A stretch of 64,000 nucleotides of DNA. Source: a virus. Position 1 is the first letter of the stretch. Each line of letters starts with the position of its first letter. A program made the translations under genes and the position numbers. Location of the stretch: IMG/VR virus record IMGVR_UViG_3300035670_000067, positions 32,001-96,000 of that record; one strand, 5' to 3'. The notes under the pieces are model-generated. The model was given only the letters and a program-made list of their open reading frames with translations, was not told the DNA's origin and ran no database searches. Below are positions 1 to 19,052 of this stretch, in pieces.

Positions 1-812
1 TGCAAGCTCATTTGGAATTGCAGATCATATAGCAATGTTCCAGAACCATTACCTTCAGAATCTTTGCCGCCATTACTTGTGCCAGTGTTTAATCCTGTCA
101 TTATCACATTCTCATATGTATTTCCATTCAAGAATAATGTCCCGATCTTACCCAGAGGTCCACAACTACAAAGATAGTTGAACATATAGGCCTCTTTGTG
201 TTGTACTGAAGTATGCGCCAGCCAGCAACTTAGGGCTATAGTAACAATACCATCGTTCAAATTGGATACAGGCGCATTCGTTCTGAATTTTCTTGGTCTT
301 GACAATTGTGAAAATGATACGGGCATCGCAGCTTCCCAGTTATTGTAGAATCTAAATCTAAATTCACTAAAGGACTGGTCTTTATCTTGATACTTATATT
401 GAAAATAACCATCTCTGACTTGCGTCGTGCTGGGCTGAGCCTGCATGAAGTTTTGGCTATCGGAAAGTATGAAATCTAAACTGTATCGAAAATATTGATT
501 ATGAGTCATAACGTCAAAATCTACAGATGCTGGCACTACATCTTGATACGTGTTATCGTTTACGATTAAATTGGCTCTGCTATGCTTGGCGACTTCTTCG
601 CCAAGATTGTAATGCAGAGCTTCTATCTCTGTCTTTGTCTTATTGGCTATATGCCACGAACAGTCTATGGTGATCCTTCTATCTACTTCGTCAGATGGTT
701 TTAGCAGAGCGCCTATCGCTCTGGGGAATGTTAATGATATCGGATTGCTAGAACCGGAAAATGCGACGTTCGTTATGTGAGATATTCTGACCCCTCCAAG
801 AATAGCTGACAT
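1..812 (-). CDS. Partial tail protein, probable distal tail/baseplate hub (runs off window start)
   Basis: ATG at 810-812 overlaps the tape measure TAA; frame open to position 1 (MSAILGGVRISHITNV...); position after tape measure. Confidence 0.55.
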   Translation of the reverse strand, partial: MSAILGGVRISHITNVAFSGSSNPISLTFPRAIGALLKPSDEVDRRITIDCSWHIANKTKTEIEALHYNLGEEVAKHSRANLIVNDNTYQDVVPASVDFDVMTHNQYFRYSLDFILSDSQNFMQAQPSTTQVRDGYFQYKYQDKDQSFSEFRFRFYNNWEAAMPVSFSQLSRPRKFRTNAPVSNLNDGIVTIALSCWLAHTSVQHKEAYMFNYLCSCGPLGKIGTLFLNGNTYENVIMTGLNTGTSNGGKDSEGNGSGTLLYDLQFQMSL

Positions 813-3800
813 TATGCAACACTCCAGACATCGCCAGTGCCAGCGTTATCGAAGACACTCACACCACCTCTTTTCCCAGCAACTGCCCCTCTATTTTCTT
901 CTCTAAGTCTGCGCATAGCGTTTAGCATACCAGTTTCAACAGCTTGCGCAGTTTCTTTCTGTGTCGCTTCTCCGCCCCTAACTGTAAGCGGATCAGGCGA
1001 AATATTGAGCTGTTTCTGTATCTCGCCGATTAACCCTTCCCAAGTTCCCTGCCCCTGTATAGCTCTTTCCTTATAATCAACCTTACCAAACGCTGCTTCT
1101 ATCTTGTCAACTTGTGATCTAACGTATGCATCTCTGGCGGCAGCATCTTGAATCTCAGCAGCATTCGCTGCGACTTCTTTCATGTATCTGTTATAAACAG
1201 TGCGAGAAGCTTTTGTTATTTGAGAAGCTGTCCAATTAGTCTTGGGGAGACCACCAGTGAATGTCTGTCCAGCATATGTTCCACTTCGCGCTGCTCTTTG
1301 AGCTTTCTCAGCTATTGACTGTCTTCTGGTTTTTTCATAATCATGAATATCTGTTAAGACTTGAGCCTTATTGCCAGCAGCACCGGCGGCTCTCGCTGCT
1401 CCAGCTTGCCCGCTAAGATAGTCTAAAATCTTTTCGCCATATTCTTTCAGTGTATCGGTGACTTGACCGATGCTATTTTCTATAGCTTGAGCAGCAATCT
1501 CAGCATTGTCTTTAAGTAACTTTTCATTTTCTTTTATCTTGTCAGCAACTCTAGCACGTTCTCTCTTGACTGCGTCAGAAGCGTTTTTGGTATTAGGATC
1601 AAAGAATTGATCTGCATTCGCAAAAAGATTTTTTAATACTTCTGGCGTCGCCTTATCAAACCTTACATCTAATCCGAATTTTTTTGCTATATCCAAAGAG
1701 GCCGCTTGCAGCATAGTGTCAAACGCGAACATAGCCGGAGACGTGTATTTTAAAATATTCCAGATCAATTGGAAAATTCCATATAATGCATACGCTGTCG
1801 TCACGATAGACTTCAATCCATTATAAACACTTCTAACTCCATCCATTATAGTTGTGATAACTTTATTGTCGCTATTCAATATCCAATCAAATATCTGTAA
1901 TATGATATCATATATCTTATACAACGCGATTGTTCCAGCAACTAAAAACGTCTCCCACAACCATTTCATAGCTGACACAGTTTCGCCAGAAAATATAGAA
2001 TTCTTCATTAAAGCTCCGATATCGAATGAAGCTATCAGAACTCCAATCTGAGATAATAACCAGATTAATCCTAATGACGCATAAGTCAACGCTTTGTTTA
2101 TAGCGAAAACGATCATGCTGTAAATTTCTTGTCCGAATCTTTTCAATTTATCTACACTATACATATCGCCTCTAAATATACCAACGAACACGTTCTTTAT
2201 TTTTTCGCCAATCGTAAGTATTTTCAACAATGCGTCTGAGACTATTCTGGCAAACATAATGATATAATTTGTATCGCCCATTTTCATCATACTGGTGAAA
2301 AATTTATAGATATCCATAAGTTTAGACTTTATCTTTTCTATGACTTGAGGATCGAACATCGTACCATGCACTAATGATTTCACCGCTTCCAAGAATTTCT
2401 CGAAAGAAGCTTTCATGAAATCAACCACTGGTCTGAGTACCACTAAGGCTTTACCAAATCTTTCGATTATAGATTCTATTCTGGACGATGTCAGAATTTT
2501 TCCTAATTCTTTCCAATATGACATCATCTTATTGGAAAAAACTGTCGCAGATAAAAGTTTATCAAGCAACTTAGCGAATGACAATTTCGCAACATTTATT
2601 GTTTCATTGATTCTCGCTAACTTACTTTGCATCGTGTTTAGCGCCATCCCAACCTGTGCAGAAACAGATTTTTCAAGTTTTTCAAACTCTTGACGCATCT
2701 GCGCTATTTCTTCAATCGCACCCTTCTTACTAAAGATACCAAATGCTCTACGAGCTTGCACCAAGCCGAAAACTTTAGATAATTTTTCAACTGGGATTTT
2801 ACCCAGTTGTTGAATCATCTGAGCGAATCCTTCACCAAATCCGCGCTTCTTTGTTACATCCTGTATTTTATTCATATCCAAGCCAAGAGCTTCCATCTCT
2901 TTCCTGGCTTTACTCGAAGGTCTATAAACAGCTTCTGCGAATCTCTGCATATATTTACTGCTAGTCCCGGCAGAACCTCTGCCAAATGCGCGAGTCAGAT
3001 ACGCCAACTGTATCGCGGCTTCTCTAGCAGGAACACCTAATGATTCGAGAATAGAAGCTGCAGATGACAATGCTGGACCATACTCTTGCAGTGTAGTAAC
3101 GCCTAAGGTCGTACCAGCATTCAATATTCTGCCAGCTTCAGCAGCATCTTTCAATTGACTCTTATAAGCGTTGAAGAAAGTTACCAATGAATTTGTCGCT
3201 TCGCCCAAGTCTGACATATCACCCATCGCCAACTGTACTGAAGCTCTCAGAACATCAAGCGCTTCTTTCTGAGTACGAAACCCTGATGACAATGTATTGA
3301 ACATCGCTTCGTTTATAGCTTCAAACGACATACCAGTTCTATACATCATTTTTTGAACTGCTGTCATCACCCACTGGAATTTAGTTCCATAGATATCAAT
3401 TACTTCTTGTGCGGCCTTAACAGCACCTCTTTCAAACGAAACAAATAACACAAGACTGTCGTTAGCGAATTTAGCGATACTTTCTAAGATATTATTCATT
3501 GACATCCGTGTCAATGCAGCAAGCCCCTTCCAGAAAGAAGACCAAATTTCTTTTATGACTCTCACAGATCCCTTAACTATAGCGCCAATAATTCTAAATC
3601 CAGCAGTCAACACATCACCGATGACTTTCATGGATTTAGTAACTATATCAATAACTTCTTCAAATATGAGTTGAATACGTCCAGCAATTACTTGTATTGT
3701 GGATATTACTCCCATGACAACTAATGTGATACCGGCCATCACCGCAGCACCAATCGCTGTGCCGCCACCTGGACCGCCAGCTAATGTCCCGATAATACCA

Positions 3801-4855
3801 CCGATTAAACCTGAAGCAAGTGTATAACCGATACCCCTTATTGCACCGCCAACCGAAACCGCCAACTTTCTTAAACTGAATGTCAAGAAATTGAAAAACA
3901 TTTCGGCGATTGTTCCTGCGGCTCTACCTAAATCGCCAGCGACTGCGCTAACAGTGTCGCCAAAGATACTACCAACCGTAGAAGCAATTGATCCAACGGC
4001 GGCTCTGGCAGATCCTGATGTTCTTGACTGCAACGCCATCTGTTGCATTTTAGTACCGATATCAATAGCAGTAAAACCAAGAGCGCCACCCAGTTCTAAT
4101 GCCCCCTGTCTAACTGTATTACGTATCATATCTCTTCGTTGTTTTAGTACCTTGGCTCTTTCTCTAAATTGAGAACGCATAGTTCTCTGATATGCGGAAT
4201 TAGCTTTAGCTCTTAACCGCTGAACTCTTAATTCTTCTGCTATATCTCCACCAACAATTCCAGTTTGACCAGCTAATTTGCCAGACGCAGAACGAACATA
4301 GTTATTTGCTATTTCGCGAACTTCTTTTATAGAGCGTCCGTATTTATGCATACCGGCAGCAGCTTTATCCATATTAACTACTGATATTTTAGCTAAAGTG
4401 TCTCTCATCGGCTGCAGATATTTGTTTGCATTCAGCGCAGAAACACCAGCCTGCTTCAATTTAAGTGAAAGAGCGGCAATTTTCATATTATATGAATGCA
4501 TTACCCTAACTTTAGCAGAATTCATAATTGACGCCATAGTTCTAGATATACTATCGCCAGTTTGCCTAAAACTTCTGGAAGTTTTAGCGGAAACACTACG
4601 CAAATTCCCATATCTATTCTGAAGTAATCTTATCGTCCCACTGTAATCCCCAAGCTTCTTATCTGCTCTTTCAGCAGACTTCACCAAAGCATCTACATCT
4701 GCTTTAGTAAGTGTAAACCCCTTACCGGAAGTCTTACGAATTTTTTCTAATTCTGCGCGTAAATCAGCCGCAGTACCAACTAATTTAGCGATCTGCTTCT
4801 GAGAGTTGCCGGTCTTTATGCCAAGAACAAATCTTATTTCTCGTTCTCTGGCCAT
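812..4855 (-). CDS. Tail tape measure protein
   Basis: 1347 aa, helical Ala/Gly-rich, TP901-like core (LSSGF...A.QLA.G...AG....RF), follows tail tube and chaperones. Confidence 0.9.
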   Translation of the reverse strand: MAREREIRFVLGIKTGNSQKQIAKLVGTAADLRAELEKIRKTSGKGFTLTKADVDALVKSAERADKKLGDYSGTIRLLQNRYGNLRSVSAKTSRSFRQTGDSISRTMASIMNSAKVRVMHSYNMKIAALSLKLKQAGVSALNANKYLQPMRDTLAKISVVNMDKAAAGMHKYGRSIKEVREIANNYVRSASGKLAGQTGIVGGDIAEELRVQRLRAKANSAYQRTMRSQFRERAKVLKQRRDMIRNTVRQGALELGGALGFTAIDIGTKMQQMALQSRTSGSARAAVGSIASTVGSIFGDTVSAVAGDLGRAAGTIAEMFFNFLTFSLRKLAVSVGGAIRGIGYTLASGLIGGIIGTLAGGPGGGTAIGAAVMAGITLVVMGVISTIQVIAGRIQLIFEEVIDIVTKSMKVIGDVLTAGFRIIGAIVKGSVRVIKEIWSSFWKGLAALTRMSMNNILESIAKFANDSLVLFVSFERGAVKAAQEVIDIYGTKFQWVMTAVQKMMYRTGMSFEAINEAMFNTLSSGFRTQKEALDVLRASVQLAMGDMSDLGEATNSLVTFFNAYKSQLKDAAEAGRILNAGTTLGVTTLQEYGPALSSAASILESLGVPAREAAIQLAYLTRAFGRGSAGTSSKYMQRFAEAVYRPSSKARKEMEALGLDMNKIQDVTKKRGFGEGFAQMIQQLGKIPVEKLSKVFGLVQARRAFGIFSKKGAIEEIAQMRQEFEKLEKSVSAQVGMALNTMQSKLARINETINVAKLSFAKLLDKLLSATVFSNKMMSYWKELGKILTSSRIESIIERFGKALVVLRPVVDFMKASFEKFLEAVKSLVHGTMFDPQVIEKIKSKLMDIYKFFTSMMKMGDTNYIIMFARIVSDALLKILTIGEKIKNVFVGIFRGDMYSVDKLKRFGQEIYSMIVFAINKALTYASLGLIWLLSQIGVLIASFDIGALMKNSIFSGETVSAMKWLWETFLVAGTIALYKIYDIILQIFDWILNSDNKVITTIMDGVRSVYNGLKSIVTTAYALYGIFQLIWNILKYTSPAMFAFDTMLQAASLDIAKKFGLDVRFDKATPEVLKNLFANADQFFDPNTKNASDAVKRERARVADKIKENEKLLKDNAEIAAQAIENSIGQVTDTLKEYGEKILDYLSGQAGAARAAGAAGNKAQVLTDIHDYEKTRRQSIAEKAQRAARSGTYAGQTFTGGLPKTNWTASQITKASRTVYNRYMKEVAANAAEIQDAAARDAYVRSQVDKIEAAFGKVDYKERAIQGQGTWEGLIGEIQKQLNISPDPLTVRGGEATQKETAQAVETGMLNAMRRLREENRGAVAGKRGGVSVFDNAGTGDVWSVA

Positions 4856-6493: not shown

Positions 6494-7828
6494 TCAATCC
6501 TTCAAATACACTAAATCCAAATATGACTGCAATTCGATCATAGAATTTTCCCATGTCCTCCACACAACCGATGCATATCTATTGTCTATTTCTAAACGCT
6601 GTTCGGCAGTGCCGCGTTCTTCATAAACCTGATTCATTTTGTCTCCAAGTTCCTGAATATCACCAAATCCCATTTCTTCTCCCTCATAATAGGCCGAAGT
6701 CCCGACAGCCAATTTATCGTCGCATCTTCTATATGAAACTTCTTTACACAAATATCTCGCACCCTCCATATATTCCATATAACCACAACATTCATTATTC
6801 AATTGAATGATTGGCTTTTTCATAGCTCCTAATTCTAATCCAGGAAGCCAAGTAGATTCACCACTAGAGAATCCAACCAAACAATCTATACGAGAATACA
6901 CATGAGGCAACACTTCTGGATGAATTGGTACGTCTAATACTGAAATATGAGGTAACTTGTTTGCTGGCAACCCTAGCTTGGCAATGCAGGCATTTAGTTC
7001 AAGCCTTATTGACCATTTAGATCTATCCTCTTGATACTCTCCATAAGGCCGATTGCCATACTTGCAGACCAGCAGAAGGCTAACAGGATCATCTTTTGTA
7101 AACGTATTACAATAGGCTTGAACGATTTCTTCAACACCCTTCCTATAGTTCCAGCTTCCCACCACACCAAATACATATCTGTTACGAAGAGACACAATAT
7201 CAATTGGCGTAATTCCAGGGTGAAATAATTTCCCATCATAACCTATCCTCACTGTTGCTAATTGGGACTTAACTCCCGATTCTTTAAATCTGCGATAATC
7301 TATTTCTGTGGGGCATAAGATAAGATTCGCGTTATTACACCATTCCACAAGTCTAGGTTGCATCCTTCTAGTCTCGATCATAGTCCAGCCTATTACAATT
7401 CTATCAGTTGGCAAGAATTCTTTCTGTAGATGTCCAGGACCAGCTATAACAAGGAATATAGATTTACTAATATCAAAACACGGATTATTCACATACCATT
7501 GCAATCTACTAAACAATGCTGGATGAATATCAATTGGTGATTTTATTGGCGAAAGTTTGATATCATATAATCCAGTCTTTTCAAGACCAAATATCACTTC
7601 TCTTGTGTGCCCAGCATACCCACCATAGAAATCAACATAACCTCTAATATGCAGATTTCTCTTTTTAGCTCCAACGAAATCATTGACCAAAAACGGTCTG
7701 GCTAACGCACCTTCTGACGTCAATACATTTCCAATATCTAATGGACATAGATTCATCTCTTCAGCAACTGGATTAGAACAAGTATCACTATTGTTAGATT
7801 TATCTTTTTTTGCCCTTATCATGGCCAC
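6494..7828 (-). CDS. Glycosyltransferase, GT-B fold (GT4-like)
   Basis: GGYAGHTRE, TMIET, RKGVEE, GESTWLPGLELGAM motifs. Confidence 0.8.
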   Translation of the reverse strand: MAMIRAKKDKSNNSDTCSNPVAEEMNLCPLDIGNVLTSEGALARPFLVNDFVGAKKRNLHIRGYVDFYGGYAGHTREVIFGLEKTGLYDIKLSPIKSPIDIHPALFSRLQWYVNNPCFDISKSIFLVIAGPGHLQKEFLPTDRIVIGWTMIETRRMQPRLVEWCNNANLILCPTEIDYRRFKESGVKSQLATVRIGYDGKLFHPGITPIDIVSLRNRYVFGVVGSWNYRKGVEEIVQAYCNTFTKDDPVSLLLVCKYGNRPYGEYQEDRSKWSIRLELNACIAKLGLPANKLPHISVLDVPIHPEVLPHVYSRIDCLVGFSSGESTWLPGLELGAMKKPIIQLNNECCGYMEYMEGARYLCKEVSYRRCDDKLAVGTSAYYEGEEMGFGDIQELGDKMNQVYEERGTAEQRLEIDNRYASVVWRTWENSMIELQSYLDLVYLKD

Positions 7829-8316
7829 TCATCCTCGGTTCCATATCTGCTTTGGTAATCTTCATCCTTTGCTGAGACCACGAGAGAAAAATTCATAAAT
7901 CCACAATACTTCTCAAATTGATTTGAATATCTGAATTCTCTTTGTGTTCTCAAGCACTTGGCTACATACAAACCATAATTGCTAGGACTGTTTACTTCGC
8001 ATAATTGTTGTGGACGTTTATTTAAAATATTTTCTATCTCGTCCATTATCTTACTAGCGGTCGTCCTAGGATTCTTATCCGTCTTTTCAACCCACACATA
8101 AAATCCTATAGAAGCGTGTTCTGCTGGCAACTTTTCTTCAGCATTTTCTATCACGTAATCGTAACATATCTGTGGATATCTATTGCCGATAGGATTGCCG
8201 TCACTTGGATGTATTTCTATATTACCATTCTGGTCTTTTGCCAGCAGTTTCACCAAAATTGGCGATAATTCAAGGACTAATGGAATCTTTGCTTCTATTT
8301 TGATTGCTGTTGGCAT
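7819..8316 (-). CDS. Probable tail terminator/completion protein
   Basis: YPQICY motif, size and synteny. Confidence 0.5.
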   Translation of the reverse strand: MPTAIKIEAKIPLVLELSPILVKLLAKDQNGNIEIHPSDGNPIGNRYPQICYDYVIENAEEKLPAEHASIGFYVWVEKTDKNPRTTASKIMDEIENILNKRPQQLCEVNSPSNYGLYVAKCLRTQREFRYSNQFEKYCGFMNFSLVVSAKDEDYQSRYGTEDEWP

Positions 8317-8936
8317 TATTCACCGACTTGTTGAAGTATTAGCCTCGGGATTTCTTCCAACATTCTTTTCTCTGCCAATTCTAAAGATTTATCCATCCAC
8401 TGATATCCTGGTGCAATCTTTGATACAGAAGTAGTAAACACAACACCATATTTTTCTGAGCCTGCTTTCTGCGCGTTCAGCCAAGTTGAAGTGCTAGTAT
8501 ATCTTAACTCATTATCTATGTATCTTTGGCGAAATTTGCCTCTTAATCTATTGTATGGAATAGCAAGTGCGTATGGATGTTTGTAAGATCTTGGAGGCAG
8601 CGCTTTTCTACCATACTGTTCTATGATCAATGGGAAAAACGCTTCCATGACTGATTCGGATAAAATGATTCTTGATGTCAATTTATTATTTTCTATTCTT
8701 AAGCTTACACCAGCACCAATTTTGGGATTTGTAATTTTTCTATTCTCAGATTTTAACTTATCAACTATACCTGCATATTTCCTAGTCGCTGGACTACGCA
8801 TCAAAACCGTTTTGAGTGACTGTCTTAAAATCTTTGGTCCATTAGCATTAATGACATTAATACTCTTTTGGACTTTCTTCAAAAGAACCTTACTTAATTT
8901 TGTTTCAAATTCTTTCGTTGATAAATTATTACGCAT
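8316..8936 (-). CDS. Basic neck/tail-completion protein (HK97 gp10-like position)
   Basis: Basic 206 aa between head closure and tail terminator. Confidence 0.4.
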   Translation of the reverse strand: MRNNLSTKEFETKLSKVLLKKVQKSINVINANGPKILRQSLKTVLMRSPATRKYAGIVDKLKSENRKITNPKIGAGVSLRIENNKLTSRIILSESVMEAFFPLIIEQYGRKALPPRSYKHPYALAIPYNRLRGKFRQRYIDNELRYTSTSTWLNAQKAGSEKYGVVFTTSVSKIAPGYQWMDKSLELAEKRMLEEIPRLILQQVGE

Positions 8937-11070
8937 TGGCGAAATTCACTTCTTCTATACGTTCAGCGTTTACTTCCAAATGATGTCCTCTACCTGCCGC
9001 GTCATTGACGTGAACAACTCTAAATATAATTCCTTCTTCGCTTGTCATCGAACTTGATTCGCTCGCTTCAGAAGAGGAAGATGTGCTCAAAAATGTTGAG
9101 GAGCTCGAGCTGAATGAACTTGTTGAAGAACTGGAACTTCTAGTAGAACTGCTTGAAGAAGAAGAATAACTGTACGGTGTACTCAATTCTAACGTGCTCA
9201 GCGATGTTGAGCTATCAGATGATGATGTAGATTCAATTACACTACTGGACGATGAAGACGACTGTGAAGAAGTCGAAGATGATGAAGACGACTGTGAAGA
9301 ATCTGATGACTGAGAAGTTGGCGATGACGAACTACTAGACGATGATTCTTGCAGAAGCGTGGATGATGACGACGAAGATGTTTCTGACGCTTCGGTTGAC
9401 GAAGACGAAGACGAAGACGATGACGTTTCAGATGCTTCGGTTGACGAAGACGAAGACGAAGTTGATGACGAAGACGATGATAAAGACGAAGATGTTTCCG
9501 ATGCTTCGGTTGATGAAGAAGATAACGAAGTTGATGACGAAGACGAAGACGAAGACGATGACGTTTCAGATGCTTCGGTTGACGAAGACGAAGACGATGA
9601 CGAAGAAGTTTCCGATACTTCTGTTGATGAAGAAGATAGCGAAGTTGATGATGAAGACGAAGACGAAGACGATGACGTTTCAGATGCTTCGGTTGACGAA
9701 GACGAAGACGAAGACGAAGAAGTTTCCGATACTTCAGTTGATGACGACGAAGAGGATGACGAAGACGTTTCCGATACTTCTGTTGATGAAGAAGATAATG
9801 AAGTTGATGAAGATGATGACGAAGACGAAGATGATGTTTCCGACGCTTCGGTTGATGATGACGAAGATGAAGAAGAAGATGTTTCAGATGCTTCGGTTGA
9901 CGAAGACGATGACGAAGACGATAACGAAGACGATGACGTTTCAGATGCTTCGGTTGACGAAGACGAAGATGAACTACTTAAAGACGTAGAACTACTCGAA
10001 GACGACATTTCAGGTCCTTCTTCTTCAATGTCGCCAGATTCCATATTTACAGCTATTAAATCCGCGTTCCCCATAGTGTCTGGAATAGTGGGGAAAGAAG
10101 TAATATCATCAAATCTATACCAAGAATAAATATTAGCAAACTTTGGATGAGATTCTAGATTTTTTGGTCTACCGTCATTCCATATAAGAGCAACATCTGA
10201 TCCAGCTTTAGCGAATTCTCCTAAAGCTATTTCTTTATTTGAAATATAACCATCATCAAGATTTGTGTGCCAAAACACATAATCATCAAGATAGTAAGCA
10301 CCGCCAGAAACGGTGGCTGAAAGAAATTTAGATATTGATGTTCTAGAAACAACCGGTAGTGAAAAATCATTAGGAGTTGCCGTATACCCAATCAGCTTAT
10401 TATCTTCATATATTCTTATATCTTTTCCAGGATTGAATACACAAATAACACAATGCCATCTTCTATCATCGATGAAATTTGATTGATGTATGGAAGATGC
10501 AGTAAGATATAATTTGTTTTGCTGATTTCTACAATAAACTTGCCATATAGCACCAGGACCTGAATCAACTATCATTCGAATTCTAACGAAAATATCGCCC
10601 CAATTAGCTAAATTGACTAAGATTTGACTGAGAGCATATTGATTTAGATCTAAACCATCCCATCTCCACCAACATGAAATGGACCATCCAGAATTTGGAA
10701 AAAAAGAAACTGGAGGATTAGTCCCCACAAAATTGATAGATTCATCCACACCATCTAATCTTATTGCTTTTTGATTGCCGTAACTTGATGACGATGACCA
10801 ACTTGAAAACTCTATCGAAGATTCACCAATACTGCTTGAAGACCAAGAATTGAACTCTGCGCTTGTTGAAGTGCTAGATGTCGAGCTTCTTGACGATGAT
10901 GAAGAAGAACTGAATGAGCTATATTCTCGTGAAGTAAGAGAAGAAGATAATGAAGTTGATGAAGATGATGAAGATGATGAAGAGCTAAATGAATTGTATT
11001 CTCTTGAAGATATTGAAGAAAAACTTTGCGAATTTTCTGTACTACTCGATGAAGAAATATCTACAGACAT
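8929..11070 (-). CDS. Ser/Thr-rich mucin-like virion protein with LamG/ConA-like domain and head-closure-like C-terminus
   Basis: AIRLDGVDESI...WSISCWW...WHCVICVF...IRIYEDN...YLDD...SWYRFDD LamG pattern between poly-Ser tracts; about 10 TE(A/V)SET-S(n) repeats; ends FRVVHVNDAAGRGHHLEV. Confidence 0.75.
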   Translation of the reverse strand: MSVDISSSSSTENSQSFSSISSREYNSFSSSSSSSSSSTSLSSSLTSREYSSFSSSSSSSRSSTSSTSTSAEFNSWSSSSIGESSIEFSSWSSSSSYGNQKAIRLDGVDESINFVGTNPPVSFFPNSGWSISCWWRWDGLDLNQYALSQILVNLANWGDIFVRIRMIVDSGPGAIWQVYCRNQQNKLYLTASSIHQSNFIDDRRWHCVICVFNPGKDIRIYEDNKLIGYTATPNDFSLPVVSRTSISKFLSATVSGGAYYLDDYVFWHTNLDDGYISNKEIALGEFAKAGSDVALIWNDGRPKNLESHPKFANIYSWYRFDDITSFPTIPDTMGNADLIAVNMESGDIEEEGPEMSSSSSSTSLSSSSSSSSTEASETSSSSLSSSSSSSSTEASETSSSSSSSSSTEASETSSSSSSSSSSTSLSSSSTEVSETSSSSSSSSSTEVSETSSSSSSSSSTEASETSSSSSSSSSSTSLSSSSTEVSETSSSSSSSSSTEASETSSSSSSSSSSTSLSSSSTEASETSSSLSSSSSSTSSSSSSTEASETSSSSSSSSSTEASETSSSSSSTLLQESSSSSSSSPTSQSSDSSQSSSSSSTSSQSSSSSSSVIESTSSSDSSTSLSTLELSTPYSYSSSSSSSTRSSSSSTSSFSSSSSTFLSTSSSSEASESSSMTSEEGIIFRVVHVNDAAGRGHHLEVNAERIEEVNFANA

Positions 11071-11348
11071 TATTCACCTGTCAAATCAATAAGTTGGTCA
11101 TTGTTATGCCATTGCATCAGCTGTGGAAATATCTCGCTGTAAGAATATCTATCCCATTGACTAAATTCTTCAGGCAGCAAATGCGGATTAGCTGAGTAAT
11201 GTTTAGTCACCTTTATAACTGTTAATCCAGTCTTTGTTCTTATACAATCACCAATATTCTTTTCAACTATTATTCCAGCATCCATGTATTCTTGAACTTT
11301 ATTCCAATTTTCTTGGAATGATGTATCAACTATGAAATAGATATTCAT
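11070..11348 (-). CDS. Hypothetical protein
   Basis: 92 aa ORF coupled to both neighbours (ATGA and TAATG overlaps). Confidence 0.6.
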   Translation of the reverse strand: MNIYFIVDTSFQENWNKVQEYMDAGIIVEKNIGDCIRTKTGLTVIKVTKHYSANPHLLPEEFSQWDRYSYSEIFPQLMQWHNNDQLIDLTGE

Positions 11349-12058
11349 GACGAGCTACTCCCACTGGTTGATGAAGATGATGAATTTGTTACGCTACTAG
11401 ACGATGACGATGATGATGAACTGTGAGAGCCATATCCGCTACTGGTACTTGAAGATTCAGAACTTGAAGAACTACTAGAAGCGGAAGAAGTGGACTCTGT
11501 TGCATAACCTATACTTGTGGAAGAACTTGAGCTAGAACTTCTAGAAGATTCACTAGATGAAGAACTCAGTGAGCTCGTGCTAGATAATGAACTAGTTGAA
11601 GACCAGCTTTGTGAAGTGCTCAGTTCTCTGCTCGAACTTGAATAAGAACTAGATGAACTTGATGAACTACTAGAAGAAGATGAACTTGAAGATGACCAGC
11701 TCGAAAATTCTATTGATGAACTACTTGAAGACGAACTTGACGAACTACTTGAAGAAGAACTAAATGAACTATACTCTTCATCTTCATCACCATATGCATA
11801 TTGCTGATGTACTCTTATGAAATCCCCATCTCTGATATTCGTGCCATAATCAAAGAAAAACAAGTATCTGGATTTCGATAAGTTCCCAGCATCCCCGCCT
11901 TCAGCTAAACTTGGAATTTCTTCTTGTTCAAATGTACATATTACATTTCTTGCGACAGTCACTAGCTTACGAATACGTTCTCCATATTCATTGCGCGTAC
12001 CAAGATCGCGCAATCTGAGTATCGAACATTTTCGTATTAGTAACCCTTGGAAACTCAT
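11345..12058 (-). CDS. Head-closure/head-tail adaptor N-terminal part (SPP1 gp16-like) with poly-Ser tail
   Basis: MSF..LL...CSI.R...NEYGE...NV.C...YLFF.....IRDGDFIRV pattern, then about 140 aa of Ser/Thr. Confidence 0.7.
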   Translation of the reverse strand: MSFQGLLIRKCSILRLRDLGTRNEYGERIRKLVTVARNVICTFEQEEIPSLAEGGDAGNLSKSRYLFFFDYGTNIRDGDFIRVHQQYAYGDEDEEYSSFSSSSSSSSSSSSSSSSIEFSSWSSSSSSSSSSSSSSSSSYSSSSRELSTSQSWSSTSSLSSTSSLSSSSSESSRSSSSSSSTSIGYATESTSSASSSSSSSESSSTSSGYGSHSSSSSSSSSSVTNSSSSSTSGSSSS

Positions 12059-12723
12059 ACTGCTTCGTATACGAAACTGTTGAATTGAGGCAACAGAGAA
12101 AACAGATACTCAATATATTGATCCAAACTCATTCGTGTTGAATCGCTGGTCGTCCTGCCAGCTAACACGTAACGGTATTTGCCTATCTCTTCTTCAAGTA
12201 TATCACCCTTGGCATATACAGATGGATTTAATCTAGCCATTGTTCTATTGATTATGCAAAGCTGGAGCAAGGACAATATTGATGCAGGTGAAGATGTTCC
12301 AAATGTCCCAACGATTTTTATATTCCTTATCCCCTTGGGGAAAACGCCAGCTTCTTCGTCATTGCCATATTCTATGTTATCTATAGGATTTATAATTTCT
12401 ATCTTACCAGTGTTAGGTTCATACCAGATTTCTCTTGTCGCACTTGTCTGCGTCACATTTACACTTGTCTCGGCCAAATCTTCTCCAATAAGCGTCATGG
12501 AAACCAATGAAACTATGGGAATTGGAGTTACGAATAGATGCTTAGTCCCGTCGCCATCAAAGTATAATGTCTGTTCTATTGCTTCCCAAGTAAATCCAGA
12601 TTTTTGCGTAATTTCTTCGTAAGACGCACTTCTTATGAGAGTAGGTATATCACTAATACTAAAACTAGGATTCAATATCCTAAAATATTCTGCGATTTGA
12701 TCATCTGTCAGAAAATCGGCCAC
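12055..12723 (-). CDS. Head-tail connector (gp6/gp15-like)
   Basis: FDGDG..HLFV.PIP.VS, FPKGIRNIKI.GTFG, EEIGKYRY patterns typical of phage connectors. Confidence 0.7.
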   Translation of the reverse strand: MADFLTDDQIAEYFRILNPSFSISDIPTLIRSASYEEITQKSGFTWEAIEQTLYFDGDGTKHLFVTPIPIVSLVSMTLIGEDLAETSVNVTQTSATREIWYEPNTGKIEIINPIDNIEYGNDEEAGVFPKGIRNIKIVGTFGTSSPASILSLLQLCIINRTMARLNPSVYAKGDILEEEIGKYRYVLAGRTTSDSTRMSLDQYIEYLFSLLPQFNSFVYEAV

Positions 12724-12732
12724 GCTTCACCT

Positions 12733-13737
12733 CTATTCGTTAGGCTTAGTATCTGTCTTTTGACCGACTTTCTGACGCTTTTCCCATTCTTCGAATTTAC
12801 TTTCTGGCTTGCAATACAATCCCCTAGTGGGTTCGTTCGCTATATCACCCAATCCATCTGTCGCATAAGCAACAGCTTCTTCAAATGGGACATGATCGAA
12901 AACTTTCAATTCAGATTTTTCATTGCAATTGTATATCTTTAATCCAACAGCATCAAAGTGTGGCTTCAGCTGTGGAAAATATTCTTCTCGCATTCTCTTG
13001 TATGTATTCAAGTTACAATTGACAGCGCCCTTGTCGCGGCCTTCATCGAAATGATAGGTATTTGTTTCGCTCATATTAAGATCAACGCCAAGCAAGAATA
13101 TAGTTCTAAATCCAAGCAAGAACAATATCCTAATGGCCGGCAATATCACACTTCTACCACCGCCATAGTCTTCAGCATTCCCCCAATTAAGAGTATCTTC
13201 CCAAAGCCATCTATTGGCGTGGAATTTACTATTCCTCTTGAAATAGTACACGTTAGGGACATCGCCAACATTACAATCCAACGGACAATCGTTATAGTTG
13301 TCCCACAATGGTTTGTCTACCGCTCCTATCGGAACGAATTTCATAATCTTAGGATCAACCCAAATAGAACGAATAAATCTAGATGGATCATCAACACTGA
13401 TCCACGCATCTGGCCTATATGTTCTTGGACTATTGTTTAATCCTAGAGTCCAACAATTCTTCAATTTGGTCAAATCAAGAAGTTTGAAGCTTGGGCCGCC
13501 CGCTATGAGGAACGCCGTTGCGCCTTTGTAGTGCCCCAGTAAGGCGTTTGCAGTGTTCCCTTCTCTTGTCCAGAAGAAAGGCATTGGCTGAAACCATTCT
13601 TTTTCATAGGTGTGGCCCAGCCATAACTTTCTGTCTTTGATCATTTCATAAGCGCGGCCATCTCGCATACGAGAATCGTCTTTTCTGTCGCGCTTCAGCC
13701 CACGCTCACAGACATTGTTCATTTTCTTTGGCTTCAT
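12733..13737 (-). CDS. Maf/DUF115-like (MptE-like fold) putative glycosyltransferase
   Basis: AFLIAGGPSF, LGLNN, WISVD, S....AIRILFLLGFRTIFLLGVDL, YHFD, IYNC motifs. Confidence 0.7.
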   Translation of the reverse strand: MKPKKMNNVCERGLKRDRKDDSRMRDGRAYEMIKDRKLWLGHTYEKEWFQPMPFFWTREGNTANALLGHYKGATAFLIAGGPSFKLLDLTKLKNCWTLGLNNSPRTYRPDAWISVDDPSRFIRSIWVDPKIMKFVPIGAVDKPLWDNYNDCPLDCNVGDVPNVYYFKRNSKFHANRWLWEDTLNWGNAEDYGGGRSVILPAIRILFLLGFRTIFLLGVDLNMSETNTYHFDEGRDKGAVNCNLNTYKRMREEYFPQLKPHFDAVGLKIYNCNEKSELKVFDHVPFEEAVAYATDGLGDIANEPTRGLYCKPESKFEEWEKRQKVGQKTDTKPNE

Positions 13738-14468
13738 CGCTGAATCTCCAGATGTTTGCCAGCTTCAGGATCACGCTCATGATTTAGATGGAACTGTTTT
13801 TTCTTTGTAGACAATTTCCATTTTTGAAAACGCTTCTTGAACTGTAAGTCTGACTTTGGATTTAATCCTTTGTTGAACATGTGAAAATCTCTACTATTAC
13901 CTTCGATGTAGTATCCATTCAATAGGTTCTTGTGGACCATCTGAAAATATCCAGCTCCAACATTGCCCATTTTACGATTGCTGATTGCGGCTAAATCTGC
14001 AGTCTTTTCAATCAAAGACGGATATTGAATACAGTCTATTAATTGATCAACATCTTGCACTTTGTTTGACCAGCGTCCAACAGATATCATTTTGCTCAAT
14101 CTATCTTCTGAACTCATAATCAGTTCGGACACTTCTTTCCAAAATCCTAATTCATAAACCATGTCACAATCAGAAAACACAACATATTCGGTATCTTCGT
14201 CAAGCATCTTTACTTGATCATTTCTGGTATAGCCGCGCATAGCGAAACGTTCTTTATCTTCCATTAAAAGCAACTTAATCTTTAATCCACACTTCCTATA
14301 GAAATCTACAACTTCTTCAGTTGTTGGATTCCCATTGTTGGGCATGGCACACACGTTAACGACCAATTGATTCTGCGAAAAGAATTTTTGTTCAACTGCT
14401 AAACTGGATAAATCCCAGCAAAGACGTCTCTGATAATTGTGACACAATAATAGGATCTCTATTTTCAT
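13734..14468 (-). CDS. Glycosyltransferase, GT-A fold (GT2-like)
   Basis: RN...EYVVFSDCDM DxD motif, GAGYFQM, SD.QF, HLNH. Confidence 0.7.
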   Translation of the reverse strand: MKIEILLLCHNYQRRLCWDLSSLAVEQKFFSQNQLVVNVCAMPNNGNPTTEEVVDFYRKCGLKIKLLLMEDKERFAMRGYTRNDQVKMLDEDTEYVVFSDCDMVYELGFWKEVSELIMSSEDRLSKMISVGRWSNKVQDVDQLIDCIQYPSLIEKTADLAAISNRKMGNVGAGYFQMVHKNLLNGYYIEGNSRDFHMFNKGLNPKSDLQFKKRFQKWKLSTKKKQFHLNHERDPEAGKHLEIQR

Positions 14469-14474
14469 GTTACC

Positions 14475-16052
14475 TCACGGAGTTAGATATTGTCTGAAGT
14501 TGTGTTTGACGATTCTTCGTTTGCCGCCAAGTCTTGTTATGACATACCATACAAGAGTGTCTTGGGAAGGTATTGGCATCTTACCGCCGCACATCCGCGC
14601 TAGATGCTTTGTGAAGGCTGTTTTTTCAATCGAGAAAAACGTACAAATTCTTTTGTGGCGATGCTTAGGCTGTTCTATCTTCAGCCCACTAAATAGAGGC
14701 TTTGTCTTATTGAAGTCTGGCAGCTTGTCTGCCCACCAATCTAATAGATGAAGCCAGTGGATTCCATTTTTCTCATAAATCGGATCATGTTTAATCTTAG
14801 TGTATCCCCAAGGTGAAGCTGTCAAGGTTGCGTCCCACGCTTCTTCGGGAATTTCTATTTTATCACACTTTGGCGTCACATCGCAATCCATCTTTATCCA
14901 ATATCTAGTCTTTACATTTTTCGCAACACCGAAAACAAATGCGCTGAGCATATGCTCTTTGTCTGACAAATCTGAAGAGTTCGGCCAAGTGATAACGCGA
15001 GTGCTGTTGTCTACTTCTGTAATAACAAAATCAATACATTTGCTGTCAGCAAATACAATCTTTTTCATATGTTTGATAGGTTCGACATTCTGCCAAAGTT
15101 TCCAATTCTTCAAGAAATGATGTAAATACTTATTATTGACTGCTGTTACTAATGTACAAAGATCCGCATTATTGTCTTTCTCTTGCAACCACTTTTCTAC
15201 TGAGCTATCGTGAAAGCAAGAATGCTCAATATCAATGAATCCATTCTCTCGCATCTCAGAATATGTCTTTTTCCAATATTCGCAATTCTTATATCTACCG
15301 ACATGCTTGTGTCCATGATAATGTATAATCTTTGTATCTTTGGTGACTGTTCCAAATCTAACAGATTCGCCCCATTCTGTGCCAGCCAATCTATGCTCTA
15401 CAAGAGGAAGCATTAGCTGACACGCTATTTCGTCAACTATTCTAGTCGTACAGCGCTTCTCATACCCGCGCTGACATATCTCATTCCATTTTTCTAAGGC
15501 TGGATCACCACTAATCCAGCCATTGATGCCCGTGTTTATTGCCGCGCCATAGGCTAACGCGCCAGCTATTAATTCAGGGCAAGCCTTCTTCCAAGCGTTT
15601 ATTCTACGTGAAATAGAACTACCAGTTGTTTTCCAATTCGCAAAATTCCCTGTAACAAATCCATTAGCTGCTATCATCATGAAATATTCATCTATTGGAT
15701 TCAAAACAAGTGTATCGGCATCCAGAAACATCACTAAATCAAAATTATTCACATAGCGATGTAATGTTGGCTTTATGCTCAGCGGATAATCATTAGATTC
15801 TGGCATATAAGCGGTGAAACACTTGAGCTCTTTCAATTTTGAAAGGAACCAGTCGTCCTGCAACCCCTGTAACAGAACAACTATACTTCCATTCCAAACC
15901 TTGCGCAATGAATAGATGCTAACAAGCATCCTCAAGCAGCATTTTGTTCCACGATTGAAATAGATTACTGTCTTACTGCATGTTAAAGAATCTAACATAT
16001 TTTCTTCCATCAATAACTCGTTTAATGATGTTTCTTTGGTTGTAGCACTCAT
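14475..16052 (-). CDS. Two-domain glycosyltransferase (GT8-like plus second GT-A domain)
   Basis: VMFLDADTLV, INTG, DE, IIHYHG..K; second domain YWIKMDCD and QDT. Confidence 0.7.
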   Translation of the reverse strand: MSATTKETSLNELLMEENMLDSLTCSKTVIYFNRGTKCCLRMLVSIYSLRKVWNGSIVVLLQGLQDDWFLSKLKELKCFTAYMPESNDYPLSIKPTLHRYVNNFDLVMFLDADTLVLNPIDEYFMMIAANGFVTGNFANWKTTGSSISRRINAWKKACPELIAGALAYGAAINTGINGWISGDPALEKWNEICQRGYEKRCTTRIVDEIACQLMLPLVEHRLAGTEWGESVRFGTVTKDTKIIHYHGHKHVGRYKNCEYWKKTYSEMRENGFIDIEHSCFHDSSVEKWLQEKDNNADLCTLVTAVNNKYLHHFLKNWKLWQNVEPIKHMKKIVFADSKCIDFVITEVDNSTRVITWPNSSDLSDKEHMLSAFVFGVAKNVKTRYWIKMDCDVTPKCDKIEIPEEAWDATLTASPWGYTKIKHDPIYEKNGIHWLHLLDWWADKLPDFNKTKPLFSGLKIEQPKHRHKRICTFFSIEKTAFTKHLARMCGGKMPIPSQDTLVWYVITRLGGKRRIVKHNFRQYLTP

Positions 16053-18065: not shown

Positions 18066-19052
18066 TTAGAAGGAGACTGTCGTGCTCAGATTGTCGATCT
18101 CGCAGGTCATATCTGTCCGATTGAACTGGAAGGCGATACGCTCACTGGTAACGTACTTCCGCTGATCGGATTCGATGACTTTATCAGATTCGAGTTTGAT
18201 GCGCCGACGATCACCAATCTCGCAGGCTTCACGATGCATGACCACCGCGTGACCTGACGGAGCGTTAGCGAGTTCGTACACACGAACGCCATAGATGGTG
18301 GTCAGCATACCATCTGACTCACCAGCTGAGCCAAGACCAGTGATGAAGCTCGCCAGAGCCAGACCAGTCATGCTCGTGTTTTTGAAGTTGGTGTTTGACC
18401 GAATATTCGCAGCCTGATCGGGAGGAACGATGCAGATCAGACGGCTCTTGTTGCGACCATATTTCCCAAGGTTATAGATCGCGTTATTAACCATGTCTTC
18501 ATCGAAGGCGGCACCACCGCCAGCGACTTCTGACGCACCAGATTCATTGGCAACGGTGAAGATACCGTCAAACGCAAGACGCGAATCACGGATATACCAG
18601 TTGGCGGTTGTCGCGGACTCAGGCGTCGGCGCAGTAGCGGTGTGATCAACATCGCCCTGGAGGAACGCCAGTTCTTCCGCCTCAGCAATAGCATCGGCGA
18701 AGTCCTGCAGAACCTGAGCCACAACGTCAGGCTGAGAATCTTCGATAGCTTCTTCGTCAATCATGACGTAAGCCATCAGTTTCTTAGCCGTCCATGTGAC
18801 TGAAGTCGCCGCATAGCTTGTCAGCGTAGCGGTCGTACCATCAGGAATATAGTACGCTGAACCGCCGCTAGTTCTCTTCGGCTTGGTCCATGTGCGCGAA
18901 GGCATGGTGAATGACGGGACCAGTCTACGAATCAGGTTGCGTTCGCGAACGAACTCGATCACCTGATTCGCCAGAGGCGTCGGAAGATAAGCACTGATGC
19001 TGGACCCAGAGGTCGCAACTGACAGTGCCTTGCGGATAAGCTCGACACTCAT
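18066..19052 (-). CDS. Major capsid protein (HK97 fold)
   Basis: YLP..LANQVI...RE, AKKL.AY..I.EE..EDS, FA.AIA.AEE.AFL.GD, TIYGVRV. Confidence 0.92.
   Translation of the reverse strand: MSVELIRKALSVATSGSSISAYLPTPLANQVIEFVRERNLIRRLVPSFTMPSRTWTKPKRTSGGSAYYIPDGTTATLTSYAATSVTWTAKKLMAYVMIDEEAIEDSQPDVVAQVLQDFADAIAEAEELAFLQGDVDHTATAPTPESATTANWYIRDSRLAFDGIFTVANESGASEVAGGGAAFDEDMVNNAIYNLGKYGRNKSRLICIVPPDQAANIRSNTNFKNTSMTGLALASFITGLGSAGESDGMLTTIYGVRVYELANAPSGHAVVMHREACEIGDRRRIKLESDKVIESDQRKYVTSERIAFQFNRTDMTCEIDNLSTTVSF

What the first reader, a model, noticed from the sequence alone, without database searches (positions are those of the whole stretch)
8929..12058. Head-closure protein appears split over two genes, each half carrying a Ser-rich stalk
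Seen: ORF 11345-12058 has the N-terminal ~85 aa of a gp16-like head-closure protein, ending IRDGDFIRV, then only poly-Ser. The expected final strands (Y/F-x-V-x-x-V-x-D-x-x-G-x-x-HHLEV) instead form the extreme C-terminus of ORF 8929-11070 (GIIFRVVHVNDAAGRGHHLEVNAERI, 8929-9033), about 2.7 kb away. They follow a 92-aa gene, a LamG-like domain and ~300 aa of Ser/Thr. Inference: a Ser-rich insertion in a hairpin loop acquired a lectin cassette and split the gene. The fold could reassemble by beta-strand complementation in trans, hanging LamG-tipped glycan whiskers from the neck. Alternatively, recombination between the Ser repeats could restore a single gene as a switch.
Basis: partly seen in the sequence, partly recalled or inferred. 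Interest (0 to 1): 0.88.

Follow-up and report, generated by a model that had tools for sequence, protein, structure and literature searches.

The report
Phage neck stopper gene in two pieces
In this uncultured phage the small barrel protein that plugs the head after DNA packaging is encoded in two separate genes, with serine-rich stalks, a lectin-like domain and a 92-residue orphan gene in between. The two pieces would probably have to snap together to work, which would hang long, possibly sugar-coated whiskers from the phage neck.

Summary
ORF1 (12058-11345, minus strand) holds only positions 1-88 of 116 of a stopper/head-closure profile built from relatives (E 1e-18), and then poly-Ser. The missing last two strands, with the family's D-x-x-G-x-x-HHLEV motif, are the extreme C-terminus of ORF3 (11070-8929). 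No other stopper match exists in the 110-kb viral contig.

Unsplit relatives of 105-130 aa sit at the same gene position in four syntenic phages. Two other relatives carry Ser-rich and globular insertions in the same loop. One is a single ORF of at least 1120 aa. The other has both halves within 1.15 kb. So the loop insertion is shared, and the split by the orphan ORF2 (11348-11070) is particular to this phage.

Independent contigs from two to three samples of one study reproduce both gene junctions, so this is not an assembly artefact. All junctions are ATGA/TAATG overlaps, which suggest coupled translation.

Reassembly of the two halves in trans is my best reading (about 0.55) but is only weakly supported by modelling (ipSAE 0.44, controls 0.00). 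I found no evidence for a recombination switch. A three-gene transferase-like cassette co-occurs with the Ser insertions (3 of 3 against 0 of 4 phages).

The scan had already noted this same stretch in an overlapping window (e1-6032940).

The parts
12055..12723 (-). Head-tail adaptor (gp15/gp6-like). Its stop overlaps the ORF1 start (ATGA).
   Evidence: phrog_442 head-tail adaptor E 3e-5. Homologues sit directly upstream of the stopper in L003, L004, L006 and L008.
11795..12058 (-). ORF1 aa 1-88: N-terminal four strands plus helix of the stopper/head-closure barrel.
   Evidence: Profile of 7 unsplit relatives, positions 1-88 of 116, E 1.3e-18, the only match in the contig. phrog_615 E 1.5e-5. 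HMMER hits P0001-P0007.
11345..11794 (-). ORF1 aa 89-237: Ser-rich tail (103 Ser in 150 codons) with E[FY]SS[WF]SSS punctuation, ending in TGA that overlaps the ORF2 ATG.
11070..11348 (-). ORF2: 92-aa orphan gene between the halves, with a predicted small alpha/beta (ferredoxin/ACT-like) fold. Not an endonuclease by any test run here.
   Evidence: Only self-hit among 5.8 billion proteins. No paralogue in the contig. AF2 pLDDT 84, with no Foldseek PDB match at E<=0.001. Atlas structural neighbours are viral hypothetical proteins.
10789..11070 (-). ORF3 aa 1-94: Ser tract 1, with the same E[FY]xS[WF]SSS motif (4 copies) as the ORF1 tail.
10021..10788 (-). ORF3 aa 95-350: LamG/ConA-like lectin-type domain.
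   Evidence: Pfam Laminin_G_3 E 1.4e-4, 22.5 bits against a cut-off of 27.6. Atlas features 0.97 to viral Laminin_G_3 clusters.
9052..10020 (-). ORF3 aa 351-673: Ser/Thr tract 2, with 11 copies of TE[AV]SETSS in 45/69-nt tandem units. The repeat number is uncertain.
   Evidence: In Logan contigs 9418-9940 is broken into small unitigs.
8929..9051 (-). ORF3 aa 674-713 plus stop: the last two strands (beta-hairpin) of the stopper barrel with the family motif DAAGRGHHLEV.
   Evidence: phrog_1059 positions 75-107 of 111. Sole genome-wide hit, E 1.7e-4. Alignment A4 with the C-termini of L004, L006, L008, L009 and L010. Chimera test.
8316..8936 (-). Next gene (206 aa): putative tail-completion/neck protein. 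Its start overlaps the ORF3 stop.
   Evidence: Position, and a homologue after the stopper in L004. No family hit, so the role is inferred from synteny.
12733..16052 (-). Three-gene transferase-like cassette (Maf/MptE-like 334 aa, 244 aa, 525 aa) that co-occurs with Ser-tract stoppers.
   Evidence: phrog_4603 E 1.1e-8 and MptE-like E 1.8e-6. Homologues occur only in L003 and L004, not in L006, L008, L009 or L010.

Best explanation
This is a stopper (head-closure, SPP1 gp16 / PBSX XkdH-like) gene in pieces. In an ancestor, the variable beta4-beta5 hairpin loop of the roughly 115-aa barrel took up a long Ser/Thr-rich insertion with lectin-like domains. That state is still seen unsplit, or nearly so, in two related phages. 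In this phage the insertion is cut by a 92-aa orphan gene, giving two polypeptides. ORF1 is barrel strands 1-4 plus a 150-aa Ser tail. ORF3 is Ser tract, LamG-like domain, a Ser/Thr tract of about 320 aa, and barrel strands 5-6. The three genes are translationally coupled through ATGA and TAATG overlaps. I infer that the C-terminal hairpin of ORF3 completes the ORF1 barrel in trans when the stopper ring (6 or 12 copies) forms under the adaptor. Each subunit would then tether a long, flexible LamG-tipped stalk to the neck. The stalk is probably O-glycosylated by the phage's own transferase cassette. What is shown: homology of both pieces, the break point, the real sequence, the lack of another stopper, and relatives with insertions in the same loop. 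What is inferred: co-assembly, outward-facing whiskers, and glycosylation.
For: N-half: 7 HMMER relatives, 4 of them unsplit (111-128 aa) and ending in ...V.D..G..HHLEV. The profile of unsplit relatives hits ORF1 at positions 1-88 of 116 only, E 1e-18, with a single match in the 110-kb contig. C-hairpin: sole phrog_1059 match in the contig, E 1.7e-4. The chimera test adds about 10 bits, and 2 of 12,514 controls reach it. Fold: the AF2 model of unsplit P0003 (pLDDT 75) has strands 9-22, 28-45, 64-70 and 80-83, a low-confidence loop at 84-99, then strands 100-108 and 116-123. It matches the T1 stopper, SPP1 gp16 (TM 0.62/0.71), XkdH, lambda FII and GTA. XkdH is also found by sequence profile, E 0.01. 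ORF1 therefore lacks 2 of 6 strands. Synteny: adaptor, stopper, next gene in L006, L008, L009 and L010 with plain stoppers. Insertions at the same loop: in L003 the N-half is fused in one ORF of at least 1120 aa; in L004 the N-half, Ser, a domain, Ser and the C-hairpin NIWMKVMHVDNVTAEDHHYEV lie within 1.15 kb. Sequence reality: an X1 contig covers 10986-12300 and an X2 contig covers 11081-11520 with no difference. Overlapping start/stop codons run along the whole chain from adaptor through ORF1, ORF2 and ORF3 to the next gene. Complex prediction on A3+A4 gave 'weak support': ipSAE 0.44, best of 3 controls 0.00. The runs agree in at least 82% of contacts and the partner's pLDDT is at least 57. 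In calibration the mark was reached by 58 of 80 solved complexes and 2 of 110 mismatched pairs, but scores of 0.60 or under by only 7 of those 80 and by both mismatches. Halves of a split gene can also pass by likeness to solved stopper structures.
Against: There is no experimental or expression evidence, and co-assembly is only weakly modelled. No second phage with a clean split was found, so the split may be recent and not selected. P0002 and P0006 sit on short contigs, and the L004 break looks like a frameshift. The C-hairpin on its own is statistically modest (15.6-18 bits). Whether the beta4-beta5 loop points outward in the ring was not tested. The contig is about 76% complete, so a second stopper outside it cannot be excluded, although the canonical slot is occupied. 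X1 may be the source sample, and X2 and X3 are from the same study.
Confidence: 0.55

Rival explanations
1. Recently broken gene. Insertion of ORF2 (or a rearrangement in the Ser tract) inactivated the stopper, and the contig represents a defective or low-fitness variant. The C-hairpin is intact only because there has been no time to decay.
For: No other cleanly split example was found in 1.84 billion representatives or among the loci fetched. ORF2 is an orphan.
Against: The same junctions appear in contigs of two to three samples at phage-like depth. Both junctions are neat coupling overlaps inside an operon made wholly of overlapping genes. No other stopper exists in the contig, although the rest of the structural module is intact.
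Confidence: 0.15
2. The N-half alone is a sufficient, minimal stopper. ORF3 is an independent neck or other fibre whose C-terminal hairpin is a vestige, or docks somewhere other than the ORF1 barrel.
For: Stoppers are small, are flexible as monomers, and fold on assembly (PMC10276861). The ORF1 N-half keeps all conserved N-terminal features.
Against: Every relative without a Ser insertion has the two C-terminal strands. The model needs them to close the barrel. The hairpin keeps the most conserved motif of the family.
Confidence: 0.12
3. One polypeptide is made after all, by recoding (two -1 shifts or hops across or around ORF2) or by RNA/protein splicing.
For: ORF2 is -1 relative to ORF1, and ORF3 is -1 relative to ORF2. 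L004 also shows a -1 break.
Against: There is no slippery heptamer at either junction. ORF2 is a well-folding separate protein. No intein or intron signature is present, and the break is flanked by plain Ser tracts. ATGA and TAATG are the usual termination-reinitiation overlaps.
Confidence: 0.05
4. Recombination switch: homologous exchange between the Ser tracts deletes ORF2 and restores a single gene in part of the population.
For: A 28-nt repeat at 89% identity (10900-10927 against 11750-11777, both coding for EYSSFSSSS) would fuse ORF1 and ORF3 in frame.
Against: The repeat is short and imperfect. The protein motifs are kept through synonymous differences rather than identical DNA.
Confidence: 0.03
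5. Assembly artefact or chimeric join inside the low-complexity Ser repeats.
For: Region 9418-9940 is fragmented in independent contigs, so the repeat number there is unsure. Relatives' contigs break at their Ser tracts.
Against: Both gene junctions, all of ORF1, ORF2, the LamG domain and the C-hairpin lie on long error-free contig pieces: 10986-12300, 9940-10939 and 8700-9418. Gene order matches relatives.
Confidence: 0.05

Closest known systems
Stopper / head-closure proteins (SPP1 gp16, PBSX XkdH 3F3B, lambda gpFII, T1 stopper 9L0E, RcGTA g7)
   Same: The N-half and C-hairpin together cover the family profile. The gene sits between the adaptor and the tail-completion gene. The model of a relative superposes on these structures.
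   Different: The known ones are single chains of 100-130 aa. Here the barrel is spread over two genes 2.7 kb apart, with more than 600 aa of Ser/Thr tracts, a LamG-like domain and an extra gene in the beta4-beta5 loop.
Phage genes in pieces (Aeh1 nrdA split by mobE; T4 topoisomerase genes 39/60 with mobA; phage 25 gene 43A/43B), reviewed in PMC2988022
   Same: A coding region that is contiguous in relatives is split by an intervening ORF into two polypeptides that must reassemble.
   Different: Those are enzymes split by homing endonucleases. Here a virion beta-barrel is split inside a disordered insertion, and the intervening ORF shows no endonuclease features.
Fractured genes joined by split inteins (PMC2677866)
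   Same: Two gene halves with an inserted ORF between them, in environmental phage-like DNA.
   Different: There are no intein blocks at the break. The ends are Ser tracts, so any joining would be non-covalent.
Virion glycosylation of mycobacteriophages (Freeman et al. 2023, PMC10527164, as cited in PMC12619734)
   Same: Transferase genes lie inside the structural operon next to structural proteins with Ser/Thr-rich extensions.
   Different: There the glycans sit on short C-terminal extensions of the capsid and tail-tube subunits. Here the presumed targets are tracts of hundreds of residues inserted in a neck protein, and glycosylation is untested.
Neck appendages with sugar-binding modules (T4 fibritin whiskers; lactococcal phage neck passage structure or collar-whisker proteins). 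This comparison is from my own knowledge and was not checked here.
   Same: Fibres at the head-tail junction, some tipped with carbohydrate-binding domains.
   Different: Those are separate proteins that dock on the neck. Here the fibre would be anchored by supplying two strands of the stopper barrel itself.

Membership tests
Stopper / head-closure (Hc1; SPP1 gp16, XkdH-like) | Sequence match to family profiles | tested here: met
   ORF1 aa 8-85 match phrog_615, E 1.5e-5. Profile of relatives, E 1.3e-18. ORF3 tail matches phrog_1059, genome-wide E 1.7e-4. No Pfam hit.
Stopper / head-closure (Hc1; SPP1 gp16, XkdH-like) | Complete six-stranded barrel in one polypeptide of about 100-130 aa | tested here: not met
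   ORF1 covers profile positions 1-88 of 116 and ORF3 covers about 90-113. The two are separated by two stop codons and ORF2.
Stopper / head-closure (Hc1; SPP1 gp16, XkdH-like) | Stopper fold | tested here: inconclusive
   Met for the unsplit relative P0003 (Foldseek to 9l0e, 7z4w_1, 3f3b, 8k37). For the window's two chains there is only a 'weak support' complex: 0.44 against controls of 0.00.
Stopper / head-closure (Hc1; SPP1 gp16, XkdH-like) | Gene position between the adaptor and the tail-completion/terminator genes | tested here: met
   Order is TerL, portal, protease, MCP..., adaptor, ORF1-3, 206 aa, 165 aa, GT, tube-like, TMP. The same slot is used in L006, L008, L009 and L010.
Stopper / head-closure (Hc1; SPP1 gp16, XkdH-like) | Forms a 6- or 12-mer ring below the adaptor and closes the channel | not testable with these tools
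   Needs virions or cryo-EM.
Genes in pieces (Aeh1 nrdA/mobE type) | Contiguous in relatives, split here by an intervening ORF | tested here: met
   Unsplit P0003, P0004, P0005, P0007, L006, L009 and L010, plus L003 as one ORF of at least 1120 aa. ORF2 lies between the halves.
Genes in pieces (Aeh1 nrdA/mobE type) | The intervening ORF is a homing endonuclease | tested here: not met
   ORF2 has no Pfam hit and no significant PHROG hit (phrog_11162, unknown function, E 0.04), and no PDB fold match. It is an orphan.
Genes in pieces (Aeh1 nrdA/mobE type) | The halves reassemble into a working protein | not testable with these tools
   Only a weak modelling pass is available.
Split-intein fractured genes | Intein N- and C-halves flank the break | tested here: not met
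   No intein family was found in ORF1 or ORF3. The break is flanked by Ser tracts.
LamG / ConA-like lectin domain (Laminin_G_3) | Match above Pfam's gathering score | tested here: inconclusive
   22.5 bits against a cut-off of 27.6, E 1.4e-4. Atlas features 0.97, with all top named clusters Laminin_G_3. No fold or ligand test was run.
Phage virion O-glycosylation system | Transferases in the structural operon plus Ser/Thr-rich virion targets | tested here: met
   phrog_2170 glycosyltransferase E 1.6e-10. phrog_4603 sialyltransferase-like E 1.1e-8. ORF1 and ORF3 are 51% and 49% Ser+Thr. The cassette co-occurs with Ser-tract stoppers.
Phage virion O-glycosylation system | Glycans actually attached to the tracts | not testable with these tools
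   Needs glycoproteomics.

The most novel reading that the evidence does not exclude
An obligate two-chain stopper. The C-terminal beta-hairpin of a 713-aa mucin-like, LamG-tipped fibre supplies strands 5-6 of each stopper barrel. Head closure and the mounting of 6 or 12 glycosylated neck whiskers would then be one and the same assembly step, which would be the first virion barrel protein known to be built by trans strand complementation of a gene in pieces.
Probability: 0.45. Interest if true: 0.78.

Novelty: new variant of a known kind. Interest (0 to 1): 0.62.

Why it matters
Stoppers are among the smallest and most uniform parts of the tailed-phage neck. This case shows that one loop can carry insertions of hundreds to more than a thousand residues, and that the barrel may tolerate being encoded in two genes. 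That extends the genes-in-pieces idea from phage enzymes to a virion building block. It also points to a new way of anchoring decoration fibres. It links a transferase cassette to Ser-rich virion proteins in uncultured subsurface phages, which would be a mucin-like coat. It also offers a natural split point for engineering display on the phage neck. For annotation, it warns that a 'truncated' stopper followed by Ser-rich ORFs need not be a pseudogene.

Tried and rejected
They sit on contigs of 575, 3841 and 1187 nt, so their ends may be contig breaks.
- The word-based search for short homologues of the N-half found nothing.
- Viral-contig scans with the N-half, the adaptor and P0002 found nothing.
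- The search for long proteins ending in the C-hairpin (A4, 'longer') returned only the alignment's own members, so no second split example was found.
- phrog_615 over the contig gave no candidate in the loose first look, although hmmscan finds it. This is a prefilter miss.
- A local HMM of 4 or 7 unsplit relatives scores the short C-hairpin alone only at E 0.7-2. The chimera test replaced it.
- PDB phmmer with the N-half gave only chance RecO hits.
- Pfam on the inserted domains of L003 and L004 found nothing, so the L004 break as a frameshift remains an inference. It rests on a TTG-only start, a break inside a globular stretch, and Ns in the contig.
- The ORF2 fold search gave no match at E<=0.001.
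- Sequencing runs: no RNA holder is listed.
- Deletion joints have sides of 27 nt or less and depths unlike the phage's, so I read them as other organisms' repeats. Contigs cannot show rare variants in any case.
- Region 9418-9940 lacks long contig cover.
- Alternative genetic codes: reading TGA as a residue extends ORF1 by only 5 codons before a TAG.


Full report
**Setting.** The window is bases 32001-96000 of a 110,384-bp IMG/VR viral contig that is about 76% complete. It comes from subsurface or soil metagenomes of a single study. The minus strand carries a siphovirus-type late module:

- TerL (21771-24047), portal, protease and major capsid protein (18066-19052).
- Several unassigned and transferase-like genes.
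- An adaptor (12055-12723; phrog_442).
- The three ORFs of the finding.
- Genes of 206 aa and 165 aa.
- A GT1-like glycosyltransferase (phrog_2170, E 1.6e-10).
- A tube-like 144-aa protein, and a tape-measure protein (812-4855).

- ORF1 (12058-11345, 237 aa) starts MSFQGLL. It reaches IRDGDFIRV at aa 75-83 and then becomes a Ser tract (103 Ser in 150 codons).
- ORF2 (11348-11070, 92 aa) starts at an ATGA overlap with the ORF1 stop and ends at a TAATG overlap with the ORF3 start.
- ORF3 (11070-8929, 713 aa) has five segments: Ser tract 1 (aa 1-94), a LamG-like domain (aa 95-350), Ser/Thr tract 2 (aa 351-673, with 11 copies of TE[AV]SETSS), and a 40-aa tail containing IIFRVVHVNDAAGRGHHLEV.
- The adaptor stop overlaps the ORF1 start, and the ORF3 stop overlaps the next gene's start. 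The whole chain is therefore built for coupled translation.

**Are the two ends halves of one family?**

- ORF1 aa 8-85 match PHROG 615 (connector) positions 14-87 of 117, E 1.5e-5.
- The last 45 aa of ORF3, taken alone, match only PHROG 1059 (connector), positions 75-107 of 111. In a six-frame scan of the whole contig that is the single phrog_1059 match, E 1.7e-4.
- A full HMMER search of 1.84 billion representatives with ORF1 aa 1-95 gave seven relatives. Four are ordinary 111-128-aa proteins (P0003, P0004, P0005, P0007). After the conserved GD-x-[IV]-x-[IV] strand they continue with a short variable loop and then ...V.D..G..HHLEV..., which is the motif at the end of ORF3.
- Loci fetched through the conserved tube-like protein show plain stoppers of 105-130 aa in the same slot in L006, L008, L009 and L010. 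L010 ends KYKVLAVMDDAGRGNHLKI, close to the window's FRVVHVNDAAGRGHHLEV.
- A profile of the seven unsplit proteins matches the contig only once, at ORF1, covering positions 1-88 of 116, E 1.3e-18.
- The hairpin is too short for a significant local hit, so I tested it in context. ORF1(1-88) joined to the ORF3 tail scores 74.0 bits. Joined to 12,514 other 36-mers from all six frames of the window, it scores 64.2 +/- 1.2 bits, and two reach 74.
- Taken together with the position at the end of the neighbouring gene, I regard the homology of both pieces as established.

**Fold and break point.**

- The profile finds PBSX XkdH (3F3B) over its full length, E 0.01.
- An AlphaFold2 model of P0003 has pLDDT 75. 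Its strands are 9-22, 28-45, 64-70 and 80-83. A low-confidence loop follows at 84-99, then strands 100-108 and 116-123.
- The model matches stoppers from T1, SPP1 (gp16 in 7Z4W, TM 0.62/0.71), SaPI1, GTA, Bxb1 and lambda.
- The window's break falls in the beta4-beta5 loop, the most length-variable stretch of the alignment.
- ORF1 therefore has four of the six strands, and ORF3 supplies the last hairpin.

**Relatives with insertions.**

- P0002 and P0006 are N-halves followed by Ser tracts, but they lie on short contigs.
- L003 is 80% identical to P0006. It carries the N-half fused in a single open frame of at least 1120 aa to Ser tracts and two globular domains, and the frame runs off the contig end.
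- L004 has the window's synteny: Maf-like gene, adaptor, stopper, 188-aa gene, 176-aa gene, GT1, tube. It encodes the N-half, a Ser tract, a globular domain, a Ser tract and then a C-hairpin (NIWMKVMHVDNVTAEDHHYEVIMEV) within 1.15 kb.
- The L004 unit is in two overlapping frames, and the junction lies inside the globular stretch. The only start for the second frame is a TTG, and the contig contains Ns. I therefore read the break as a probable frameshift error, but this is unresolved.
- So a large insertion in this loop is shared by a subgroup. The clean split by a separate gene is seen only here.
- The E[FY]xS[WF]SSS punctuation runs through the ORF1 tail and ORF3 tract 1, on both sides of ORF2. 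This fits ORF2 having landed inside a once-continuous tract.
- The STE[AV]SETSS unit is shared with L003, L004 and P0006.

**Is the sequence real?**

- Logan contigs of run X1, which may be the source sample, cover 10986-12300, 9940-10939 and 8700-9418 without a difference.
- Run X2 covers 11081-11520, the ORF1/ORF2 junction, without a difference.
- Run X3 has pieces abutting at 11068/11069.
- Only the tandem region 9418-9940 is fragmented, so the repeat number is unsure but the frame stays open.
- Reading TGA as sense extends ORF1 by only five codons.

**ORF2.**

- It is an orphan, with only a self-hit among 5.8 billion proteins and no paralogue in the contig.
- It folds confidently in the best model (pLDDT 84, although the other four models are poor) into a small alpha/beta domain.
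- It has no PDB fold match. Atlas neighbours are viral hypothetical proteins and ACT-like domains.
- Nothing marks it as a homing endonuclease or an intein. Its G+C content (0.33) is like that of its neighbours.

**Mechanism.**

- The best reading is non-covalent reassembly. The ORF3 hairpin would complete the ORF1 barrel during ring formation.
- Stopper monomers are reported to be flexible and to order only on assembly (PMC10276861), which would make this easier.
- Complex prediction with alignments of the N-halves (A3) and C-hairpins (A4) gave 'weak support': ipSAE 0.44, best of three controls 0.00. The runs agree in at least 82% of contacts, and the partner's pLDDT is at least 57.
- In calibration the mark was reached by 58 of 80 solved complexes and 2 of 110 mismatched pairs. 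Scores of 0.60 or under were reached by only 7 of those 80 and by both mismatches. Halves of a split gene may also pass from memory of solved stoppers.
- If the halves do assemble, each of the 6 or 12 subunits would tether a LamG-like domain on a Ser/Thr linker of about 320 residues, and would also carry a free 150-residue Ser tail.

**Glycosylation is inferred.**

- The Maf/MptE-like gene (phrog_4603, E 1.1e-8), the 244-aa gene and the 525-aa gene upstream of the adaptor have homologues only in L003 and L004. Those are the two relatives with Ser-tract stoppers.
- The four phages with plain stoppers lack these three genes, while the GT1-like gene is found in four of the relatives (L004, L006, L008, L009), with and without insertions; no hit was found in L010, and the L003 locus ends before that slot.
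- That is 3 of 3 against 0 of 4, but the numbers are small and the phages are not independent.
- Virion O-glycosylation by operon-encoded transferases is known in mycobacteriophages (Freeman et al. 2023, cited in PMC12619734).

**Rivals.** Five rival readings are scored in their own section: a recent inactivating break, an N-half that suffices alone, recoding into one chain, a recombination switch, and an assembly artefact. On the switch, the only repeat flanking ORF2 is 28 nt at 89% identity. It would fuse the frames correctly, but no credible junction was seen.

**Comparison and novelty.**

- As a family, the gene pair belongs with stopper/head-closure proteins by sequence, position and the fold of its relatives. 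It fails the 'one complete chain' feature.
- As an arrangement, it resembles phage genes in pieces (PMC2988022), but without an endonuclease. It also resembles fractured genes (PMC2677866), but without inteins.
- I know of no described stopper with a mucin-like loop insertion, or one encoded in two genes. That statement rests on my own knowledge and two literature searches.
- I rate it a new variant of known kinds, with interest 0.62.

Noticed in passing
window 12733-16052 (minus); L003:1657-6427; L004:3810-7294: A three-gene cassette (Maf/MptE-like 334 aa, 244 aa, 525 aa) between the head genes and the adaptor has homologues only in the two relatives whose stoppers carry Ser insertions. The four relatives with plain stoppers lack it. 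The GT1-like gene at 6494-7828 is found in four of the relatives (L004, L006, L008, L009), both with and without insertions.
   Followed up: partly
L004:8600-8730: The insertion-bearing stopper of IMGVR_UViG_3300002231_000163 is broken by a -1 frame change inside its inserted globular domain. The second frame has only a TTG start, and the contig has Ns. It is either a sequencing error or a real, perhaps programmed, shift.
   Followed up: partly
window 9052-10020; L003:8300-11360; L004:8250-8560; P0006: The unit STE[AV]SETSS(S) recurs in the Ser tracts of phages whose stopper N-halves are only 28-40% identical. It could be a conserved sequon or horizontally exchanged tract cassettes.
   Followed up: partly
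L003:7115-7978: In IMGVR_UViG_3300022220_000006 a 287-aa gene with a signal-peptide-like N-terminus sits between the adaptor and the stopper. It has no Pfam hit.
   Followed up: no
window 9342-10129 (+ strand): Long Asp/Glu-rich and Lys/Thr/Met-rich ORFs run antisense to Ser tract 2. They are mirror images of the TCN/AGY repeats, not genes.
   Followed up: no
window 21771-24047 (minus): The TerL ORF is long (758 aa), and its PHROG match comes in two stretches. This is compatible with the mini-intein noted by another reader (e1-6032948). I did not examine it.
   Followed up: no
window 30000-58000: G+C content rises to 0.45-0.52, against about 0.40 in the structural module, and long ORFs are few. 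I did not examine this.
   Followed up: no
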